Positions 1 to 7,082 of a stretch of DNA of 64,000 nucleotides are shown in pieces; position 1 is the first letter of the stretch; every line of letters begins with the position of its first letter. The notes below the pieces were generated by a model. That model had not been told where the DNA came from and searched no databases. It saw only the letters and a list, made by a program, of their open reading frames with translations. The stretch spans positions 116,756-180,755 of the forward strand of contig DATDHZ010000080.1 in NCBI GenBank assembly GCA_036521315.1. Reading direction: 5' to 3'. This stretch comes from Acidobacteriaceae bacterium. GTDB lineage: Bacteria; Acidobacteriota; Terriglobia; Terriglobales; Acidobacteriaceae. The translations under genes and the position numbers were made by a program.

Positions 1-1422
1 GGACTTGCGATTCACGGAGACGATGACGTCGCCCTGCTGCAGGCCGGCGTTATCGGCCGGGCTGCCGGGGCGGACGGTCTGGACGACTGCACCCTCGACG
101 CTCTGCGGCGCCTGAAGCTGCTGGCGCACGTCAGGCGTGAGATCGGCGAGGCCGAGGCCCCAGCGGCCTTTGTTATTGCCGTTCTGCGCCACTTCCGTCG
201 CACTGCTGTCGTTCATCGATTCCAGCGTGACCGGCACGCTGCTGGATTTGCCGTCGCGCGAAATTTCCAGCTGAATGGTCGTGCCCGGCTGCTGCTGGCC
301 GACGCGCATCTGCAGCTCGCCCGCATCATTCACAGGCTTGCCGTTCATGGCCGTGATGACATCACCGGTCTTGATGCCGGCTTTGGCGCCCGGCGAATCG
401 GAATTGACCTGGGTAACGACTGCGCCCTGAGCTTTCGTCATGGCGAAGAACTTCGCGTTCTCGGGCGTAACGTCACTGATAGTGACGCCCATCATGCCGT
501 GGCGAACGTGCCCGTCCTTGATGAGTTCGTTGACGATGGGCTCGGCCACTTCAGTGGGAATGGCAAAACCCATGCCGGAGAAGGATCCAGTCGGCGAGAC
601 GAGGAAGGTGTTGATGCCGATGAGCTGGCCGCGCGAATCGACGAGCGCACCGCCGGAGTTGCCGGGATTGATAGCCGCATCGGTCTGGATGAACTCGCCG
701 GGCTTGTGAGGATCGGCTTCCGGATTCGGGCGGTTGAGCGCGCTGATAATGCCCCGGGTGACGGTGAAGCGGAATCCATAGGGATTGCCGAAAGCGAGCA
801 CCATCTGGCCGGGATGCAGTTGCGCGGTGTCGCCCCACGGCACGCTGGGCAGGTTGTTCGCGTCGATCTTGATGACGGCGAGATCGGTGAGGGGATCGGT
901 GCCGATGAGCTTTGCCGAGTAGACGTCGCGATTGCTCATGGTGACGTGAATATCCATGGCTCCCTGCACGACGTGGTTGTTGGTGACGATGTAGCCATCA
1001 GGCGAAATGACGACGCCGCTGCCCAGGCCCTTCTCGATTTGGGGTCCAGGGCGCTGCATCGGGCCCTGGAAGAACTGCCCAAAGGGCGAGCCCGGTCCGA
1101 AGAACTGCTGCATCTGCTGCTGTTCCTGCTCCTGCTGGCCGCCGCCATCTTCGGCAAGCTGCTGCTGGGTGAGCTTCGAGGTGACGGTGACATTCACCAC
1201 CGCGGGCGTGATGTGGGCGGCCAGCGCTTCCATCGCCTGATCGAACGAGACGAGCGCGTTCGTTTCGTCGAGCGAAGGCGCGGCTGGAACGGCAGGAGCG
1301 GCGAGGGCCGCCGAAGCGGGCCTGGCGAATTCCCACGCCCCCGCGCCGACGAGCACTCCGGCGGCGAGCACCGGAACCGCGAGGCGACGCGTGAGCAGCG
1401 ACTGTAATTTTCCCTTGTTCAT
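1..1422 (-). CDS. htrA: Do/DegP/HtrA-family periplasmic serine endoprotease with two PDZ domains. It is partial: the C-terminal end runs off the window, so it is absent from the ORF track.
   Basis: Hand translation of the minus strand from ATG 1422-1420, with GGAGAA 7 nt upstream: MNKGKLQSLLTRRLAVPVLAAG... (signal peptide). Catalytic contexts are GYIVTNNHVV (His), DLAVIKI (Asp) and INPGNSGGALV (Ser, nt 643-669). PDZ-like stretches are VVTQVNSDSPGAKAGIKTGD and GAVVQTVRPGSPADNAGLQQGDVI. The frame stays open to nt 1. Confidence 0.9.
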   Translation of the reverse strand, partial: MNKGKLQSLLTRRLAVPVLAAGVLVGAGAWEFARPASAALAAPAVPAAPSLDETNALVSFDQAMEALAAHITPAVVNVTVTSKLTQQQLAEDGGGQQEQEQQQMQQFFGPGSPFGQFFQGPMQRPGPQIEKGLGSGVVISPDGYIVTNNHVVQGAMDIHVTMSNRDVYSAKLIGTDPLTDLAVIKIDANNLPSVPWGDTAQLHPGQMVLAFGNPYGFRFTVTRGIISALNRPNPEADPHKPGEFIQTDAAINPGNSGGALVDSRGQLIGINTFLVSPTGSFSGMGFAIPTEVAEPIVNELIKDGHVRHGMMGVTISDVTPENAKFFAMTKAQGAVVTQVNSDSPGAKAGIKTGDVITAMNGKPVNDAGELQMRVGQQQPGTTIQLEISRDGKSSSVPVTLESMNDSSATEVAQNGNNKGRWGLGLADLTPDVRQQLQAPQSVEGAVVQTVRPGSPADNAGLQQGDVIVSVNRKS

Positions 1423-1451
1423 GTTTGCTTCTCCACGGGTATTGCAAGATT

Positions 1452-1471
1452 GCAACTAATTAATTAGTTGC
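1452..1471 (-). promoter_or_regulatory. Perfect 20-bp palindrome GCAACTAATTAATTAGTTGC in the htrA promoter region; candidate BlaI-family operator.
   Basis: Lies in the 73-bp gap between the blaR1-like stop (1496) and the htrA start (1422). On the minus strand it starts 4 nt after TTGACT (1475-1480). A 14/18-identical copy lies upstream of the blaI-like gene (3587-3604). Confidence 0.5.
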
Positions 1472-1495
1472 TTGAGTCAAAAATTTTTGCGCTAA

Positions 1496-3127
1496 CTACG
1501 TTTGCATCGGTCCTGCCTGCAGAACTGGAATCATGAGGACCACGCGCCAGGTGCGCACGTGGACGCCGGTTTCGTCCTGCTCGACGACTCGGACGGTTTG
1601 GACTTGCACGGCCTGCATCGGAATCGCGTGCTGTGGCGCTGCTGCGCCGGGGTGCTGCGTCTGCGTCAGACGGTCGCTGCCGGGCGAGCCCTGAGCCGGC
1701 GCGGCGTCGGAACCGGGCTGCACATACTGGGTCTCGACGACCATGACTACTTGCGTCGCCGGAGGGCCGGCTTCGCGCTCCGAGACCGGGGTGCGATCGG
1801 GTGCGCCTGGATGCTGCGTCTGATCGAGGTTGGCCATCACCACCTGGGGAGCTTGCGTCTGGGCAACGGCGACTTCGGACTCAGCCTGGTTCTGTCCCTT
1901 CGCGTGGCGGGCGTGGAATCCTGACACGGGATGCGTCAGGCGTGGGGCCGTCGCCGTGTTGGCAGGCTGCGCTGCGGGGTGAAACATGACCGGGACGACT
2001 GCGGCCCCATGCAGGCTGCCGCGCAGATCCACGCCGGATGGAATGGGAACGCCGATGTGATTCGCCGCCGCCGTGGGATGCATCGGCTCTGCGTCGGGAG
2101 CGAAACTTACCATTTGCGGCACGACGGCCAGCACGCCGCAACAGGCCACGGACAACGCGGCGGCCAGGCCGAGCACGCCGCGACCCACGCGCGTGGTCGA
2201 TGAAGCTTTGCCGCTCAGGAGCCGGGCGATGCGCAGCGAAGCTTCCCTGGCTCGCGCGACGGCAGTCTGGGCCATGGTCCATCCGCGATGGGCGCAGCCG
2301 CGCTCGAGCAGACCGATCAGGCTGCCCGCATAGGAACGAGCATCGCCGGTTGCGGCGAGTACTGCGTCGTCGCAGGCCATCTCCCGCTCGAGCGAAAGGC
2401 GGGCATCGATCCACCACACTGCCGGATGAAAGAAGAACACGGCGCGCGCCAACTTCTGGAACAGGTTCGTCCAGTCGTCGCGGCGACGGAGGTGAGCCAT
2501 CTCGTGAATCAGGATTGGATGAAGCTGCTCAGCGCTCAGCTCGCGGAAACACCATGCGGGCAGCACAATGGCGGGATGTCGAAATCCGATGGCCGCGGGA
2601 ACGCGCGCTTTCTCTGAGACGAGCAGCCGGACGGCTCTTCCCTTCCCATGTTGCGCGAGAGCATCGCGCAGGATGGGGTCCAGAATCGCATGATCTATTT
2701 CCAGGCAAGCTCGGCGCATGCTGCGCACCTGGGACACGCCGGCGGCCAACCGCAGCAGTGCGACCAGTGCAATGGGCACCCACAGCGCCACAAAAGCAAT
2801 GGCCCAGATGCCGGGGACGGTCACTTCCGCGTGCGGAACCGCCCCGAAAGTGCGGCCCAGCGCGTGCCTGCTGGATTCGAGTCCGGTCAGCAGTGGAAGT
2901 GCCGCAACGCCGGCAAGCGCCGTGAGCCACACGAGAAATCGTGTTCCGGCGTTGGTGCCGCGGATGAGACGGAGGAGGAGCCAGGCGCAAATGGCGAGCA
3001 AGATGCCTTCGGGCAGCGAATTGAGCACGCGGCCAACCGCAACCTGCGCGACGTTTTCCGCGCCCCCCGCGAAGCCGTTGCGGGCCGCGGCGAAAGCTAC
3101 GAAGACCAGGACAGAGCTGCTGATCAT
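1496..3127 (-). CDS. BlaR1/MecR1-like M56 family membrane metalloprotease signal transducer, without a penicillin-binding sensor domain.
   Basis: HEXXH in LIHEMAHLRRRDDW, typical of peptidase M56. N-terminal TM helices are present. ATGA start/stop overlap with the upstream blaI-like gene (3124-3127). The C-terminal 190 aa are Q/T/P/A-rich low complexity with a repeated QTQHPGA. Confidence 0.85.
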   Translation of the reverse strand: MISSSVLVFVAFAAARNGFAGGAENVAQVAVGRVLNSLPEGILLAICAWLLLRLIRGTNAGTRFLVWLTALAGVAALPLLTGLESSRHALGRTFGAVPHAEVTVPGIWAIAFVALWVPIALVALLRLAAGVSQVRSMRRACLEIDHAILDPILRDALAQHGKGRAVRLLVSEKARVPAAIGFRHPAIVLPAWCFRELSAEQLHPILIHEMAHLRRRDDWTNLFQKLARAVFFFHPAVWWIDARLSLEREMACDDAVLAATGDARSYAGSLIGLLERGCAHRGWTMAQTAVARAREASLRIARLLSGKASSTTRVGRGVLGLAAALSVACCGVLAVVPQMVSFAPDAEPMHPTAAANHIGVPIPSGVDLRGSLHGAAVVPVMFHPAAQPANTATAPRLTHPVSGFHARHAKGQNQAESEVAVAQTQAPQVVMANLDQTQHPGAPDRTPVSEREAGPPATQVVMVVETQYVQPGSDAAPAQGSPGSDRLTQTQHPGAAAPQHAIPMQAVQVQTVRVVEQDETGVHVRTWRVVLMIPVLQAGPMQT

Positions 3128-3558
3128 CGGGATCTGCTCCCAGCGCCGGACCTTGTCTCGCTTCCGGAATTTGCTTCCAGCATTTTGCGCAGCCGCTCCA
3201 ATTCTTTTGGATCGATGCCGCGATCTTCCAGGATGTTCAGGACCAGATCTTCATGGGAATTGCGGAAGAACCTGCCGACCAGATGGCGAATTTCCGACCG
3301 GCTCGCTTCGTCACGCTCGACGAGCGGGCGGAAGATGTGGGCGCGGCCATCCTTGTCGTGCCCGACGTATCCTTTTTTCTCGAGGATCCGGATGGTCGTC
3401 AGCACCGTGTTGTAGGCGAGAGCCGGCTGCGCCCGCAGGCCGTCCAGAATCTGCTGCACCGATCCCTGCCCCTGCTGCCAGAGCACCTGCATGATGCGCA
3501 GTTCAGCCTCGGTGAGCGTTTCTGAGGATTTCCGGGGCACCGATCCATTCCCTTCCAC
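3124..3558 (-). CDS. BlaI/MecI/CopY family winged-helix transcriptional repressor.
   Basis: LTEAELRIMQVLWQQGQGSVQQILDGL...AYNTVLTTIRILEKKGYV matches the Penicillinase_R fold pattern. The gene is paired with the M56 gene. The start is GTG at 3558, or GTG at 3540, which is preceded by GGAAGGGA. Confidence 0.9.
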   Translation of the reverse strand: MEGNGSVPRKSSETLTEAELRIMQVLWQQGQGSVQQILDGLRAQPALAYNTVLTTIRILEKKGYVGHDKDGRAHIFRPLVERDEASRSEIRHLVGRFFRNSHEDLVLNILEDRGIDPKELERLRKMLEANSGSETRSGAGSRSR

Positions 3559-3586
3559 TTCTTTAGACCCGCCTCGACAGCAAAAG

Positions 3587-3604
3587 TAACTAATTTTGTA
3601 GTTG
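3587..3604 (-). promoter_or_regulatory. Second copy of the AACTA-N8-TAGTT dyad (CAACTACAAAATTAGTTA on the minus strand) in the blaI-like promoter / divergent region.
   Basis: Begins 1 nt after TTGTCA (3606-3611, minus strand). A TACTTT -10-like hexamer follows. 14 of 18 positions are identical to the core of the 1452-1471 palindrome. Confidence 0.45.
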
Positions 3605-3725
3605 TTGACAAGAGAGGGGAGAAAGAGCCCTGATTTTTCAACAAAATGCCAGCTATACGACGGCGCGGAAGCGGGGCCAGTAATTCTGTAGTCGAACGGT
3701 GAACTTCGTATTAGGCTATCCCGGT

Positions 3726-6700
3726 ATGCGGCCCTTTTGCTCTGTTTCCATGCTCTGCTTCTGCCTCGTTCCGTACGCCGGTCACGCCCAAACGCAAGCG
3801 AACTCCGCGCCGCCCGGGAAGCCTGCCGCCGTCCAACCGGCCGCAGCCGCGACCGATCCTTATAAGAACGAAGCGCTGGTCTTCGAGAAGTCCGAAACCA
3901 CGATCCGCATGCACGCGGACGGGACGGGCGATCGGGAAGTTCACGTGGTGATGCGCATCCAGTCGGAGGGTGCGGCGCAGCAGTTCGGGGTGCTGGCCTT
4001 CGCCTATGCCGGAGCCTACGAGACTCCGGTCATCAAGATGGTGCGCGTCCACAAAGCAGACGGTTCGGTGGTGGACACGCCGCCGAGCGACGCCATCGAG
4101 ATGCCGACAGAAGTGACGCGCGAGGCCCCGCTCTACAGCGACCTGAAAGAGAAGCACTTGCCGGTACGGTCGCTCTCGCCGGGCGACACGCTGGAATATG
4201 TTGTCGATACTTCGATTGATAAGCCAGAAGCGCCGGGTGAGTTCTGGGGCGCGCAGCACTTCACGCCGCCGGGCACGATCGTCGTGCTTGCCGAAGTGCT
4301 CAACCTCGAGGTTCCGGCGGATCAATATGTTCAGGTGTGGAGCCCGAACCACAAGTTCACTGTGGCCGAGAAGGACGGCATCAAGACGTACAACTGGAAT
4401 GTGCCGCAACTGGTGACGGCGCCGAAGAGCAGCGGGGATGATGCGAATAAGGTGACGCCGCCGAAAGATCCCGACGAAGACAGCGATGGGAGGAAACTGC
4501 CGTCTGTGGCCTGGACCACGTTCCACAGCTGGCAGGAGGTAGGCGCGTGGTATCGCAGCCTCGCGCTCGATCGCGCGCAACCGACGGACGCGATTCGAGC
4601 CAGGGCCGACGAGATTGTGAAGGACGGAAAGACTCCGGAGGATCAGGTGCGCGCGCTGTACAGCTATGTGTCGCAGCACAATCGCTACGTGGGAATTGAT
4701 TTCGGCATCGGGCGCTACCAGCCGCACAGCGCCGCCGAGGTGCTGGCGAACCAATACGGCGACTGCAAGGACAAGGACACGCTGCTGGAAGCGCTGCTGC
4801 ACGCGAAGGGCTTCTCCACTGCGCCGGCACTGATCGGGGCGGGGATCGCTCCGGTTCCGGACGTGCCGTCGCCGGCGGTATTCAACCACGTGATTACGAC
4901 TGTCAACCTGGCGGGCGCGCGCGTCTGGCTGGACAGCACGCCGCAGGCTGCGCCGTATGAGTACCTGAGCGCGATCATTCGTGACGAAAAGGCACTGGTG
5001 ATTCCTGCCGACGGGGCGGCTTCGCTGGAATCGACGCCGGCGGCGGTACCTTATCCCTTCAAGGCTGACTTTGAAGCGGTCGCGACGCTCGATGCCGATG
5101 GAAAACTCACTGGAAAAATGACCGCGACCTACAGGGACGACGATGAAGTGGGGGTGCGCACGCTGGCCCAGAACATCGCTCCGGCGGAGTGGGACAAGGC
5201 ATCGCAATACCTCTCTTCCGTGACCGGTTTTGGAGGGACGACCAGCAACACGCAGTTCGACCACGCCGACGACAACTCGAGCCCGATTGTGCTGAAGTAC
5301 GACTACAGCCGGCATCCTTACGGCGACTGGGACAACCACCGCATCGTTCCGCTGTTTCCGATGCTGGAATTCAGCGCGCTGGACAGCGACACCAAAGCAC
5401 CGGAGGAAGACATTCAGCTGGGCGCGCCGCGCACGCTGGTGGCGGTCTCTCACATTCGTCTGCCTGAGGGCTACGCGACCGATTTGCCCGATCCCATCCA
5501 CGTCAAGACGGACTTCGCCACGTTCGACAAGACGTACCGGTTCGACGGCGAGGAGATCGTCGCGGAACGCACCATCGTGATCCTGAAGAACAAAGTGCCG
5601 AAGGACGACTGGAAGGCGTACCAGTCGTTCACGAAGGACATCAGCCTCTCAGGCGAACCATGGATTACGCTGCTGCCACCCAACAAACCATTCACGGTGA
5701 AGGTGGAGAAATCGCCGGCTCCCGCGACGGCCGCCGCGAAGCCGGACAAAGGAACAGAGACGGCTACGATTGCTGCAGCGCCGCCGGGCGGGACCACTCC
5801 AGCGACGCCGGCCGCTTCGTCTTCGAGGGCTGAATCGGTGAGCGACCTGATGCAACAGGCCGGTGAGCGGCTGCGCTCCGGCGATCTGCAGGGCGCGAAA
5901 GAGGCGCTGGACAAGGTGAAGGCGAAGAACCCCAACCAACAATATATGTGGGGTATGTACGGGTATATTGCCGGGGTGGAACGCAATTTCAACGACGCGG
6001 CGGCCGATTATCGCAAGGAACTGGCGGCCCATCCGGAGAATCCCGGGATCGTGATCGCGCTGGCGCAAACGCAAACCCAGACGGGGGATTCGGTGGGAGC
6101 GCGGGAGACGCTTTCGCATTACTTCGCGGACCATCCTGATGATTTGCACGTCTCGCTGTATCTGGCATCGCTCGAGACGACGGCCGAAGACTACAACAGC
6201 GCGCTGAAGACGCTGGAAACGGCCGCGAGCCACAACCCCGATAATCCCGAACTGCAGCTCCAGGTGAGCAATGCGCTGGTGCGCCTGAACCGCAACCAGG
6301 AAGCGGCGGCCGCGGCAGAAAGTGTGCTGGAGGGGACCGACGATCCGGGATTGCTGAACGACGGCGCCTACACGCTGAGCGAGACCGGCATCGACCTGCC
6401 GCGTGCCGAAGAAGCGTCGAGGAAAAGCATTGCGAAGCTCGACGAGGCGTCGGCCAGGATGACGGCAGAGCAGGCCAACAGCAAAGCTTTCGGGGAGGCG
6501 AACCTTCTGATCGCCTCATGGGACACGCTGGGCTGGATCCTTTATCGCGAAGGGAAGCTCGACGAGGCGCAGGCACTGATCGGTGCAGCGTGGCGCTCGA
6601 GCCAGCACGCTGAAGTCGCGTATCACCTGGGGCAAATTGACGAGGCAAAGAACGAAAAGGACGAGGCTCTGGCCAGCTATACGTATGCTGATGAGGCCAT

Positions 6701-7082
6701 CGATCGCACCGTGACGCCCGACGTTCGGAATGAAATTCACGAAAGCCTGCAGCGTCTGCGCGGGGCGGGCGTGAAGTCCGCGCCGGTGGAGTCGCTTCAG
6801 GATTTGCGCACCTACAAACTGAGCCGGCCTGCGGGGGTGGGCGGATGGGGCACCTTCCGCATGGAAATCACCACGAGCGGGGTAATTGAAGCGCAGCAGA
6901 TGTCGGGCGAGTCGAAGATCGCGGGCATTCAGCCGAAGCTCACGGCGATGAAATTCCCTGAGCTGCTGCCGCCGGGCTCGAACGCTCACCTGTTGCGGAG
7001 CGCGGTGGTCAGTTGCTCGCTGGCCACGACCTGCGAAGTAGTTTTAGTTCCCGACGGCGGGTTGCAAACGGAGCGGCAGTAG
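3726..7082 (+). CDS. Secreted DUF3857 / transglutaminase-like cysteine protease-fold protein fused to a TPR region and a C-terminal TonB_C-like domain.
   Basis: Signal peptide MRPFCSVSMLCFCLVPYAGHAQ. Transglutaminase-core context NQYGDCKDKDTLLEALLHAKG. A Pro/Ala/Thr linker (PAPATAAAKPDKGTETATIAAAPPGGTTPATPAASSS) is followed by TPR-like repeats. The last ~100 aa show a TonB C-terminal-like pattern (weak call). The ORF track starts at GTG 3699; ATG 3726 is preferred. Confidence 0.7.
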   Translation: MRPFCSVSMLCFCLVPYAGHAQTQANSAPPGKPAAVQPAAAATDPYKNEALVFEKSETTIRMHADGTGDREVHVVMRIQSEGAAQQFGVLAFAYAGAYETPVIKMVRVHKADGSVVDTPPSDAIEMPTEVTREAPLYSDLKEKHLPVRSLSPGDTLEYVVDTSIDKPEAPGEFWGAQHFTPPGTIVVLAEVLNLEVPADQYVQVWSPNHKFTVAEKDGIKTYNWNVPQLVTAPKSSGDDANKVTPPKDPDEDSDGRKLPSVAWTTFHSWQEVGAWYRSLALDRAQPTDAIRARADEIVKDGKTPEDQVRALYSYVSQHNRYVGIDFGIGRYQPHSAAEVLANQYGDCKDKDTLLEALLHAKGFSTAPALIGAGIAPVPDVPSPAVFNHVITTVNLAGARVWLDSTPQAAPYEYLSAIIRDEKALVIPADGAASLESTPAAVPYPFKADFEAVATLDADGKLTGKMTATYRDDDEVGVRTLAQNIAPAEWDKASQYLSSVTGFGGTTSNTQFDHADDNSSPIVLKYDYSRHPYGDWDNHRIVPLFPMLEFSALDSDTKAPEEDIQLGAPRTLVAVSHIRLPEGYATDLPDPIHVKTDFATFDKTYRFDGEEIVAERTIVILKNKVPKDDWKAYQSFTKDISLSGEPWITLLPPNKPFTVKVEKSPAPATAAAKPDKGTETATIAAAPPGGTTPATPAASSSRAESVSDLMQQAGERLRSGDLQGAKEALDKVKAKNPNQQYMWGMYGYIAGVERNFNDAAADYRKELAAHPENPGIVIALAQTQTQTGDSVGARETLSHYFADHPDDLHVSLYLASLETTAEDYNSALKTLETAASHNPDNPELQLQVSNALVRLNRNQEAAAAAESVLEGTDDPGLLNDGAYTLSETGIDLPRAEEASRKSIAKLDEASARMTAEQANSKAFGEANLLIASWDTLGWILYREGKLDEAQALIGAAWRSSQHAEVAYHLGQIDEAKNEKDEALASYTYADEAIDRTVTPDVRNEIHESLQRLRGAGVKSAPVESLQDLRTYKLSRPAGVGGWGTFRMEITTSGVIEAQQMSGESKIAGIQPKLTAMKFPELLPPGSNAHLLRSAVVSCSLATTCEVVLVPDGGLQTERQ

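What the first reader, a model, noticed from the sequence alone, without database searches (positions are those of the whole stretch)
1452..3604. A shared AACTA-N8-TAGTT dyad links a BlaI/BlaR1-like proteolytic switch to the htrA/degP promoter
Seen: a perfect 20-bp palindrome GCAACTAATTAATTAGTTGC (1452-1471) sits in the 73-bp gap between the stop of the M56 BlaR1-like gene and the htrA start. On the coding (minus) strand it begins 4 nt after a TTGACT -35-like hexamer. A second copy (minus strand CAACTACAAAATTAGTTA, 3587-3604) has 14/18 positions identical with both AACTA/TAGTT arms intact. It begins 1 nt after TTGTCA upstream of the blaI-like gene, in the region shared divergently with the DUF3857/transglutaminase-like gene. 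Established: BlaI/MecI/CopY repressors bind dyads that overlap promoters and are released after signalling through the M56 partner. Their classical dyad core is TACA/TGTA, which this is not. Inference: the dyad is the operator of this BlaI homologue. The switch would then co-regulate itself, a periplasmic quality-control protease and possibly the transglutaminase-like protein. That would make it an envelope-stress circuit rather than a beta-lactam resistance circuit.
Basis: partly seen in the sequence, partly recalled or inferred. Interest (0 to 1): 0.62.

Follow-up and report, generated by a model that had tools for sequence, protein, structure and literature searches.

The report
BlaI operator pair controlling HtrA protease
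Two copies of a conserved 16-bp palindrome mark the promoter of a BlaI-type repressor/membrane-protease pair and the start of the adjacent htrA gene in soil Acidobacteria, so a switch best known from penicillin resistance here most likely turns on a periplasmic quality-control protease.

Summary
Both dyads are real and sit at the stated coordinates. The spacing is AACTA-N6-TAGTT (better: cAACTAA-N4-TTAGTT), not N8.

The genes are blaI-like (Penicillinase_R), an M56 BlaR1-like protease with no penicillin-binding domain, and a Do-family htrA.

In 80 syntenic loci from Acidobacteriaceae/Terriglobales, BlaR identity falls to 38%. Even so, the exact dyad lies upstream of blaI in 79 of 80 testable cases. 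It also lies in the blaR-htrA gap in 77 of 78. It occurs nowhere else in 697 kb, where 0.16 copies are expected by chance.

The same dyad, often in tandem, precedes distant blaI genes in low-GC contigs that look like Bacteroidota. Those BlaI proteins share the recognition helix AY(N/T)(T/S)V.T..RIL. BlaI is therefore by far the best candidate binder.

The palindrome is not a terminator. The neighbouring DUF3857 gene is not a conserved part of the module.

The most likely mechanism: the M56 protease senses an envelope signal through a disordered periplasmic tail and cleaves BlaI at the conserved LVLN|I site. That derepresses blaIR and htrA.

Repressor binding, the transcription starts and the signal are inferred, not shown. 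I found no paper describing this wiring or this operator. I class it as a new variant of the non-canonical BlaIR kind.

The parts
1..1422 (-). htrA (Do/DegP-family serine endopeptidase). The first 474 residues are present; the gene runs off the window start and orthologues are about 516 aa.
   Evidence: Pfam Trypsin_2 and two PDZ domains. NCBIfam TIGR02037 scores 439.9, above the 416.2 cutoff. Lies directly downstream of blaR in all 76 related loci that extend that far.
1428..1434 (-). Shine-Dalgarno GGAGAAG of htrA
   Evidence: Read from the sequence. A GGAG core is conserved 1-9 nt after the dyad in most loci.
1452..1471 (.). htrA operator: 20-bp perfect palindrome with core AACTAATTAATTAGTT at 1454-1469
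   Evidence: 35.2 bits. An exact dyad is present in the blaR-htrA gap in 77 of 78 testable loci.
1453..1458 (-). Candidate -10 (TAGTTG), formed by the right arm of the dyad and lying 16 nt after TTGACT
   Evidence: Inferred from geometry. TTG sits a fixed 8 nt before the dyad in 62/76 loci. The consensus scan did not call a sigma-70 promoter here.
1475..1480 (-). Candidate -35 (TTGACT) of an htrA promoter
   Evidence: TTGnnn is conserved at a fixed distance from the dyad.
1479..1488 (.). A5T5 tract (UP-element-like), abutting or overlapping the -35 and starting 7 nt after the blaR stop
   Evidence: The consensus AAAattTTTTg is conserved across loci.
1496..3127 (-). M56 BlaR1-like membrane metalloprotease, 543 aa, with HEMAH at residues 208-212
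   Evidence: Pfam PF05569, E=3e-34. Four TM-like segments with HExxH between TM3 and TM4. No transpeptidase domain; NCBIfam BlaR1 scores 80, below the 400 cutoff. The tail 326-510 has AF2 pLDDT below 35 and there is a weak beta-hairpin at 505-534.
3124..3540 (-). BlaI/MecI-family winged-helix repressor, 138 aa from GTG 3540. Its stop overlaps the blaR start (ATGA).
   Evidence: Pfam PF03965, E=7e-33. Aligns over its full length to MecI, including LVLN|F against LVLN|I. The MPxK start is conserved in orthologues. An alternative upstream GTG at 3558 is not conserved.
3550..3556 (-). Shine-Dalgarno-like GGAAGGG of blaI
3563..3568 (-). Conserved GTCTAA block in the blaI leader; function unknown
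   Evidence: The consensus cgcGTC.AA sits at a fixed distance from the dyad in 79 loci.
3583..3588 (-). Candidate -10 (TACTTT) of the blaI promoter, overlapping the last base of the dyad
   Evidence: TAC(T/C)TT is conserved in more than 90% of loci.
3588..3603 (.). blaI operator: AACTAATTTTGTAGTT on the plus strand, AACTACAAAATTAGTT on the minus strand
   Evidence: 24.7 bits. An exact dyad lies 40-50 nt upstream of the blaI start in 79 of 80 testable loci.
3606..3611 (-). Candidate -35 (TTGTCA), 17 nt upstream of TACTTT
   Evidence: Sequence. This position is conserved only in the closest relatives.

Best explanation
cAACTAA-N4-TTAGTT is the operator of the BlaI-family repressor encoded at 3124-3540.

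One copy overlaps the core promoter of the translationally coupled blaI-blaR operon, giving autoregulation. The second copy lies in the 73-bp blaR-htrA gap and covers the spacer and -10 of a probable internal htrA promoter: an A/T tract, then TTGACT, 16 nt, then TAGTTG. Any read-through from the operon must also pass this site.

The partner protein is an M56 zinc protease with BlaR1 topology. In place of a penicillin-binding domain it carries a roughly 200-residue disordered periplasmic tail that ends in a small conserved beta-hairpin.

On an extracytoplasmic signal, the cytoplasmic HExxH domain would cleave BlaI at the conserved LVLN|I site, which corresponds to N101|F102 of S. aureus BlaI. 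The BlaI dimer would then leave both operators, and blaIR and the Do-family protease HtrA would be induced together. HtrA would then relieve the stress, closing a negative feedback loop. The signal is most plausibly protein-folding or assembly stress in the envelope.

Shown here: the sites, their conservation and exclusivity, the synteny, the domain content and the conserved cleavage motif. Inferred: binding by BlaI, the promoter positions, cleavage by the M56 protein, and the identity of the signal.
For: Only two hits in the window, with 0 expected. Matrix scores are 35.2 and 24.7 bits against -0.5 for the next best position.

There are 80 related loci from Acidobacteriaceae/Terriglobales. 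blaI-blaR-htrA synteny holds in every locus that extends far enough.

The exact dyad occurs 157 times in 697 kb. All copies are at the two expected positions (one of them, in L035, at a contig end), against 0.16 expected. The surrounding intergenic positions are not conserved.

In the metagenome scan, 24 of 29 contigs with GC of at least 0.5 have blaI, blaR or htrA at the site. Low-GC contigs have single or tandem dyads directly upstream of blaI-M56 operons whose BlaI is only 30-40% identical.

All dyad-linked BlaI proteins share the helix AY(N/T)(T/S)V(L/S)T..RIL. LVLN|(I/L/V)LED is invariant in 76 orthologues and aligns with the MecI/BlaI cleavage site (PMC9834060).

HExxH lies between TM3 and TM4. 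There is no transpeptidase domain and the tail is disordered.

Metatranscriptome contigs match blaI, the blaI/blaR junction, blaR and htrA exactly.
Against: There are no binding data and no transcription start sites. The simple sigma-70 scan calls no promoter at either site.

In many orthologues the dyad ends only 1-9 nt before the htrA Shine-Dalgarno. A start about 7 nt after TAGTTn would therefore give a very short leader. This fits at least as well with htrA being transcribed mainly by read-through, with the downstream dyad acting as a roadblock.

The -35 of the blaI promoter is not conserved in position. The signal is a guess from the output gene.

The RNA evidence is a handful of low-depth contigs that could include DNA.
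Confidence: 0.78

Rival explanations
1. The regulator and operator are the same, but htrA has no promoter of its own. blaI-blaR-htrA is a single operon, and the downstream dyad is an intra-operon roadblock or checkpoint. It keeps htrA low while allowing basal synthesis of repressor and sensor. The A/T tract would then be a DNA-bending or RNA-processing element rather than an UP element plus -35.
For: The gap is only 44-117 bp in most loci. The GGAG Shine-Dalgarno is conserved 1-9 nt after the dyad, so it would be left out of a transcript starting downstream of TAGTTn. No sigma-70 promoter is called. An earlier scan note, e1-2341281, proposed this logic for another BlaI operon; that note is a lead only.
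Against: T-run+G (TTGnnn) sits at a fixed 8 nt from the dyad in 62/76 loci, with an upstream A-tract. That places TTG exactly 16 nt from TAGTT, which is the geometry a promoter requires and a roadblock does not.
Confidence: 0.3
2. The 20-bp palindrome is only the transcription terminator of the blaR gene, and the upstream copy is a coincidence.
For: It can form an 8-bp hairpin with a 4-nt loop right after the blaR stop.
Against: No T-run follows it, and the terminator scan reports nothing there. The fold energy of the gap equals that of shuffles, z=0.06. The arms keep their sequence in 77/78 lineages, with no compensatory changes, while the centre varies. The same dyad lies upstream of blaI, where a terminator makes no sense. 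htrA follows within 10-25 nt.
Confidence: 0.03
3. The dyad is bound by a regulator other than the adjacent BlaI homologue, for example a global envelope or heat-shock regulator.
For: No binding experiment exists. The half-site ACTAA differs from the classical TACA/TGTA of BlaI/MecI/CopY.
Against: Across contigs of 29-68% GC, the one gene always next to the dyad is blaI or an operon containing it. Dyad-linked BlaI proteins share one recognition helix, which differs from that of MecI. No copy was found at any other promoter in 697 kb of related loci.
Confidence: 0.06
4. The two dyads are the ends of a mobile two-gene blaI-blaR cassette that inserted upstream of htrA.
For: They bracket exactly the blaI-blaR pair.
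Against: The layout is inherited with the host lineage across a whole family, at 38-81% BlaR identity and 59-95% HtrA identity. No transposase or integrase is present. In other phyla the dyads lie in tandem on one side only.
Confidence: 0.02

Closest known systems
BlaI/BlaR1 and MecI/MecR1 of Staphylococcus aureus and Bacillus licheniformis
   Same: A winged-helix Penicillinase_R repressor that aligns over its full length with MecI. The cleavage motif LVLN|Phi is conserved. The partner has the M56 HExxH domain between TM3 and TM4, with blaI upstream of and coupled to blaR. Palindromic operators overlap promoters, and the system is autoregulated (PMC9834060).
   Different: No transpeptidase (penicillin-binding) sensor domain, and no beta-lactamase or PBP2a target. 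The operator is ACTAA-N4-TTAGT (16 bp), not TACA-N2-TGTA. The recognition helix is AYNTVLTTIRIL, not SPKTIRTLITRL. The two operators are 2.1 kb apart rather than side by side in one divergent region. Scores fall below the NCBIfam BlaI/MecI/BlaR1 cutoffs.
CenIR of Clostridioides difficile (Kurtz et al. 2026, PMC13492132) and other non-canonical BlaIR systems (M. tuberculosis/M. abscessus BlaIR; P. aeruginosa PvmSR, bioRxiv 10.64898/2026.08.03.742534)
   Same: An M56 protease with a mostly unstructured C-terminal tail instead of a transpeptidase domain, which is the commonest M56 architecture according to that paper. The regulon is small and envelope-related. The signal is unknown.
   Different: The output here is a Do-family HtrA protease, wired by a second operator and conserved across an entire family of Gram-negative Acidobacteria. 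No operator was defined for CenIR or PvmSR in the texts I read.
Sigma-E (RseA/DegS/RseP), CpxAR-degP of E. coli and CssRS-htrA/htrB of Bacillus subtilis (own knowledge)
   Same: The logic is the same: an envelope or secretion stress signal crosses the membrane and induces an HtrA/DegP protease, which then reduces the stress.
   Different: The transduction chemistry differs. Here a membrane zinc protease is proposed to destroy a DNA-bound repressor. In those systems an anti-sigma factor is destroyed or a response regulator is phosphorylated. There is no homology between the regulators.

Membership tests
BlaI/MecI/CopY repressors (Pfam PF03965 Penicillinase_R) | Winged-helix domain scoring above the Pfam gathering threshold | tested here: met
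   113.8 bits against a cutoff of 22.6. Aligns over its full length to MecI 1okr, E=1.6e-12.
BlaI/MecI/CopY repressors (Pfam PF03965 Penicillinase_R) | Cleavage motif at the start of the dimerisation helices (S. aureus N101|F102) | tested here: met
   LVLN|I aligns with MecI LVLN|F. LVLN|(I/L/V)LED is invariant in 76 orthologues. Cleavage itself was not tested.
BlaI/MecI/CopY repressors (Pfam PF03965 Penicillinase_R) | Classical TACA/TGTA operator core | tested here: not met
   The operator is AACTAA-N4-TTAGTT.
BlaI/MecI/CopY repressors (Pfam PF03965 Penicillinase_R) | Specific binding of the repressor to the dyad | not testable with these tools
   Only comparative association is available.
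CopY/TcrY copper repressors | C-terminal CxCx4CxC metal site, and a score above the TIGR02698 cutoff | tested here: not met
   65.8 bits against a cutoff of 121.95. The C-terminal region has no cysteine.
BlaR1/MecR1 beta-lactam sensor-transducers | M56 metalloprotease domain with HExxH, located between TM3 and TM4 | tested here: met
   PF05569 scores 119 bits. HEMAH is at 208-212, with TM-like segments at 34-56, 62-83, 101-134 and 314-344. H208, E209 and H212 are invariant.
BlaR1/MecR1 beta-lactam sensor-transducers | Extracellular penicillin-binding (transpeptidase, PF00905) sensor domain | tested here: not met
   No Pfam hit beyond M56. NF000326 scores 80 against a cutoff of 400 and covers only model positions 104-316. 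AF2 gives pLDDT below 35 for 326-510.
Do/DegP/HtrA serine endopeptidases | Trypsin-like protease domain plus PDZ domains, scoring above the TIGR02037 cutoff | tested here: met
   439.9 bits against a cutoff of 416.2. Trypsin_2 and two PDZ stretches. The motifs TNNHV, DLAVIK and GNSGGAL are visible in the translation.
Intrinsic terminator | G+C-rich hairpin followed by a T-run | tested here: not met

The most novel reading that the evidence does not exclude
The disordered periplasmic tail of the M56 protease, with its conserved terminal beta-hairpin (C-terminal residue Ile in 42 and Thr in 21 of 65 orthologues), is a tethered decoy substrate or PDZ ligand for the very HtrA that it controls.

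When HtrA is free, it would hold or trim the tail and keep the switch off. When unfolded envelope proteins titrate HtrA away, the M56 domain would be released to cleave BlaI.

This would be a closed-loop sensor of spare periplasmic proteolytic capacity. It would fill the DegS/RseA/sigma-E role in Acidobacteria and, according to an earlier scan note, independently in Caldisericia.

In addition, AACTAA-N4-TTAGTT would be the general operator of a very large Gram-negative BlaI subfamily. That would allow regulon prediction for thousands of orphan BlaIR systems.
Probability: 0.15. Interest if true: 0.8.

Novelty: new variant of a known kind. Interest (0 to 1): 0.6.

Why it matters
A 2026 survey (PMC13492132) reports that about 94% of BlaIR-type systems lack a beta-lactam sensor, and that their signals and physiological roles are essentially unknown.

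This locus provides one of those orphan systems with three things:
- a defined operator;
- a minimal, conserved, two-promoter regulon (itself plus htrA);
- a concrete, testable hypothesis for the signal, namely envelope protein-folding stress.

It would also describe an envelope-stress response in Acidobacteria, an abundant soil phylum in which I found none described in the literature searched.

The operator consensus recurs upstream of distant blaI genes in low-GC contigs, next to other envelope genes (TonB_C fusions, thioredoxin-like proteins). It can therefore be used to predict regulons well beyond this locus.

Cultured carriers exist for bench tests: Paracidobacterium acidisoli 4G-K13 (L047) and Acidobacterium sp. 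S8 (L048).

Tried and rejected
The spacing was corrected to N6.
The genome-wide regulon scan and a search for paralogues in the window's own genome could not be done. Within the 64-kb window there is no other BlaI, M56 or HtrA copy and no further site.
- The terminator reading is rejected.
- Start-site evidence from public RNA was sought. The four soil metatranscriptome runs give only a few short exact contigs, with no 5'-end information. No RNA run exists for L047. Runs X26-X29 for L048 look like even low-depth DNA.
- A metagenome scan with CAACTAANNNATTAGTT looked for a third class of regulated gene. The five contigs with GC of at least 0.5 and no blaI nearby (L086, L098, L150, L152, L185) look like chance hits: a pilin gene end, repeats, coding sequence, and a his-leader region.
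- Co-regulation of the DUF3857 gene is not supported, because that neighbour is conserved only in L001.
- The promoters could not be fixed by sequence alone. Several -35/-10 registers are possible at the blaI site, and the -35 is not conserved in position. A match to ECF geometry (GTTAC-N16-CGTC) and to the Bacteroidota -7 element (TAnnTTTG) was noted but not adopted.
- Literature searches for the motif strings, and for BlaI/M56 together with HtrA/DegP/Acidobacteria, found nothing relevant.
Full report
**Observation**

The window carries four genes in this region, confirmed. Three are on the minus strand:
- htrA at 1-1422. It is partial. It has Trypsin_2 plus two PDZ domains and scores above the cutoff for TIGR02037, the Do family.
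- an M56 BlaR1-like gene at 1496-3127;
- a Penicillinase_R (BlaI-family) gene ending at 3124, whose stop overlaps the M56 start (ATGA).

The fourth, on the plus strand, is a DUF3857/transglutaminase/TPR gene.

The 20-bp perfect palindrome GCAACTAATTAATTAGTTGC is at 1452-1471, in the 73-bp blaR-htrA gap. The related copy is at 3587-3604, upstream of blaI.

The arms AACTA and TAGTT are 6 nt apart, not 8. The N8 pattern has no hit. The N6 pattern has exactly these two hits in 64 kb, with none in 100 shuffles. A matrix built only from sites in other genomes scores them 35.2 and 24.7 bits. The third-best position in the window scores -0.5.

**Comparative test**

The M56 protein has hundreds of full-length relatives annotated as Acidobacteriaceae. 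A scan of species-representative genomes returned 80 loci from Acidobacteriaceae/Terriglobales, with BlaR identity of 38-77%. They include cultured Paracidobacterium acidisoli 4G-K13 (L047) and Acidobacterium sp. S8 (L048).

In every locus whose contig extends far enough, the order is blaI-blaR-htrA. The DUF3857 neighbour recurs only in the closest relative, L001. The gene after htrA also varies. The conserved unit is therefore the three genes.

The exact dyad is present at both positions:
- 40-50 nt upstream of blaI in 79 of 80 testable cases. L077 has one mismatch.
- In the blaR-htrA gap in 77 of 78. L068 has lost the right arm.

Across 697 kb there are 157 exact copies, against 0.16 expected. 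None lies outside these two positions. The arms are invariant, the four central bases vary, and the surrounding intergenic bases carry almost no information. This is the signature of a protein-binding site. It is not the signature of an RNA hairpin, where compensatory changes would be expected.

**Who binds it**

A metagenome scan with CAACTAANNNATTAGTT returned 120 contigs. Of the 29 contigs with GC of at least 0.5, 24 have blaI, blaR or htrA at the site. The five others look like chance hits.

Unexpectedly, low-GC contigs (29-42% GC, Bacteroidota-like) carry the same dyad, often as two or three copies about 20 bp apart. These lie directly upstream of blaI-M56 operons whose BlaI is only 30-40% identical to the window's. 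Three variants were seen:
- The dyad can precede 'gene X-blaI-M56' operons (L125, L171).
- Some of the M56 partners carry TonB_C domains or pentapeptide repeats.
- In L178 three dyads precede a thioredoxin-like gene that is followed by blaI-blaR.

All dyad-linked BlaI proteins share the recognition helix (L/P)AY(N/T)(T/S)V(L/S)T..RIL. MecI has SPKTIRTLITRL at the aligned position. The only constant partner of the dyad across phyla is therefore a BlaI of this subtype. The dyad is the general operator of a large BlaI subfamily, and htrA is the lineage-specific output in Terriglobales.

**Anatomy of the two sites**

*At blaI.* The dyad is followed immediately by conserved TAC(T/C)TT, which is -10-like (TAnnnT). 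In the window, TTGTCA lies 17 nt upstream of it, so the dyad fills the spacer. In more distant loci the -35 is not at this position and other registers are possible. A further block, cgcGTCtAA (window 3563-3568), is conserved at a fixed distance and is unexplained. The conserved GGAGG and the start GTG-CCN-CGN show that the window's blaI starts at GTG 3540, giving 138 aa beginning MPRK.

*At htrA.* The dyad is preceded at a fixed 8 nt by T-run+G (TTGnnn; TTGACT in the window), usually with an A-tract before it (62/76 loci). This puts TTG 16 nt from the TAGTT arm, which is promoter geometry. I therefore favour an internal, UP-assisted htrA promoter whose spacer and -10 are covered by BlaI.

The caveat is that the dyad ends only 1-9 nt before the Shine-Dalgarno in most loci. 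Transcripts from such a promoter would have very short leaders. Read-through from the blaI promoter, checked by BlaI bound at the downstream dyad, is a serious alternative or an additional route.

The consensus scans call neither a sigma-70 promoter nor a terminator at the dyads. The gap RNA folds no better than shuffles, z=0.06.

**The proteins**

BlaI aligns end to end with MecI. The staphylococcal cleavage site LVLN|F corresponds to LVLN|I here. BlaR1 directly cleaves BlaI between Asn101 and Phe102 (PMC9834060). LVLN|(I/L/V)LED is invariant in 76 orthologues.

The M56 protein has four TM-like segments, with HEMAH (208-212) between the third and fourth, as in BlaR1. H208, E209 and H212 are invariant. 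After TM4 comes a tail of about 200 residues that varies in length and sequence; whole proteins range from 406 to 607 aa. AlphaFold2 with an 18-sequence alignment gives pLDDT of 70-90 for the M56 core and below 35 for residues 326-510. It also gives a weakly supported beta-hairpin at 505-534. The alternating pattern of that hairpin is conserved, and the C-terminal residue is Ile in 42 and Thr in 21 of 65 orthologues. No transpeptidase domain is detectable.

**Expression**

Soil metatranscriptome contigs match htrA, blaR, blaI and the blaI/blaR junction (3014-3243) exactly. This is consistent with expression and with blaI-blaR co-transcription. The depth is minimal, however, and there is no 5'-end information. 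Other runs were uninformative.

**Mechanism proposed**

1. The M56 sensor-protease reads an extracytoplasmic cue through its disordered tail and hairpin.
2. Its cytoplasmic zinc site cuts BlaI at LVLN|I.
3. The BlaI dimer leaves both operators.
4. blaIR and htrA are induced, and HtrA feeds back on the stress.

Steps 1-3 are inferred from homology with BlaR1/BlaI and from the conserved motifs. The link to htrA rests on the phylogenetic footprint.

In the window the htrA operator is a perfect palindrome and the blaI operator is weaker (one arm reads AACTAC). This predicts earlier derepression of blaIR than of htrA. That prediction is inference only.

**Comparison with what is known**

The system works like BlaI/BlaR1. 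It passes the family tests for the repressor fold, the cleavage motif and the M56 domain. It fails two defining features of the beta-lactam systems: the penicillin-binding sensor and the TACA/TGTA operator. It also scores below the NCBIfam cutoffs for BlaI, MecI, CopY and BlaR1.

It belongs with the 'non-canonical BlaIR' systems recently highlighted for C. difficile CenIR. That paper reports that only about 6% of M56 proteins have a transpeptidase domain and that M56 plus an unstructured tail is the commonest architecture (PMC13492132). P. aeruginosa PvmSR belongs with them too.

Neither paper defines an operator or an HtrA output. Text searches for the motif, and for BlaI/M56 together with HtrA/DegP/Acidobacteria, found nothing.

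Functionally, the circuit parallels sigma-E/DegS-RseP, Cpx-degP and CssRS-htrA (own knowledge), but the transduction chemistry is different.

**Earlier notes of this scan**

Earlier notes describe the same trio in a Caldisericia genome, the same two-palindrome layout in two other genomes, and a roadblock idea for another BlaI operon. They agree with this reading. They are AI notes and are not independent evidence.

**Limits**

The genome-wide regulon and the presence of paralogous BlaIR pairs or other htrA copies in this genome are therefore unknown.

**Verdict**

I class the finding as a new variant of a known kind, of moderate to high interest.

Noticed in passing
window 3540 vs 3558: The blaI start is probably GTG 3540 (MPRKSSETL..., 138 aa), not the longer-ORF GTG 3558. 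The MPxK start and a GGAGG Shine-Dalgarno are conserved in 79 loci.
   Followed up: yes
window 3563-3568 (minus strand GTCTAA): A conserved block, cgcGTCtAA, lies in the blaI leader at a fixed 16 nt after GTTAC (the right dyad arm plus AC). The geometry resembles ECF-sigma promoters (AAC-N16-CGTC), but the -35 reads TAC. TAC(T/C)TTT(G) also resembles the Bacteroidota -7 element TAnnTTTG. Unexplained.
   Followed up: partly
window 1479-1488: A palindromic A5T5 tract lies directly after the blaR stop. It is conserved as AAAattTTTTG at a fixed distance from the htrA dyad in 62/76 loci. L047 and L075 have only a T8 run.
   Followed up: partly
window 1496-2100 (M56 residues ~345-543): The periplasmic tail is predicted to be disordered and varies in length between orthologues. 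It ends in a conserved amphipathic beta-hairpin (VQVQTVRVVEQDETGVHVRTWRVVLMIP). The C-terminal residue is Ile or Thr in 63 of 65 orthologues.
   Followed up: partly
L104, L108, L128, L131, L156, L157, L194 (low-GC metagenome contigs): Two or three copies of the same dyad, about 20 bp apart centre to centre, lie upstream of blaI-M56 operons. Some of the M56 proteins carry TonB_C. This resembles the paired operators of the staphylococcal bla region.
   Followed up: partly
L178 2225-2293; L125 2203; L171 3936: The same dyad precedes 'gene X-blaI-M56' operons. In L178 gene X is an AhpC/TSA thioredoxin-like exported protein.
   Followed up: partly
L090 7169-9244: An M56 protease is fused to a C-terminal pentapeptide-repeat domain. 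It lies behind a blaI that has the same dyad.
   Followed up: no
L185 800-815 and ~889-963: A dyad copy lies about 75 nt upstream of a histidine-operon leader peptide (MASLAHRHHHHHHVV...) that precedes hisI. This is probably a chance match.
   Followed up: partly
L056: The record is titled Verrucomicrobiia, but the locus is nearly the same as the Candidatus Sulfotelmatobacter loci (L049, L052, L054). The contig is probably mis-binned.
   Followed up: no
L068 4270-4300; L034 5486 and 5552: Two exceptions. L068 keeps only the left arm of the htrA dyad. L034 has two htrA-gap dyads 66 bp apart.
   Followed up: yes
window 3699-7082: The 1127-aa DUF3857 + transglutaminase-core + TPR protein is divergent from blaI. 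The adjacency is conserved only in L001, so it is unlikely to belong to the module.
   Followed up: partly
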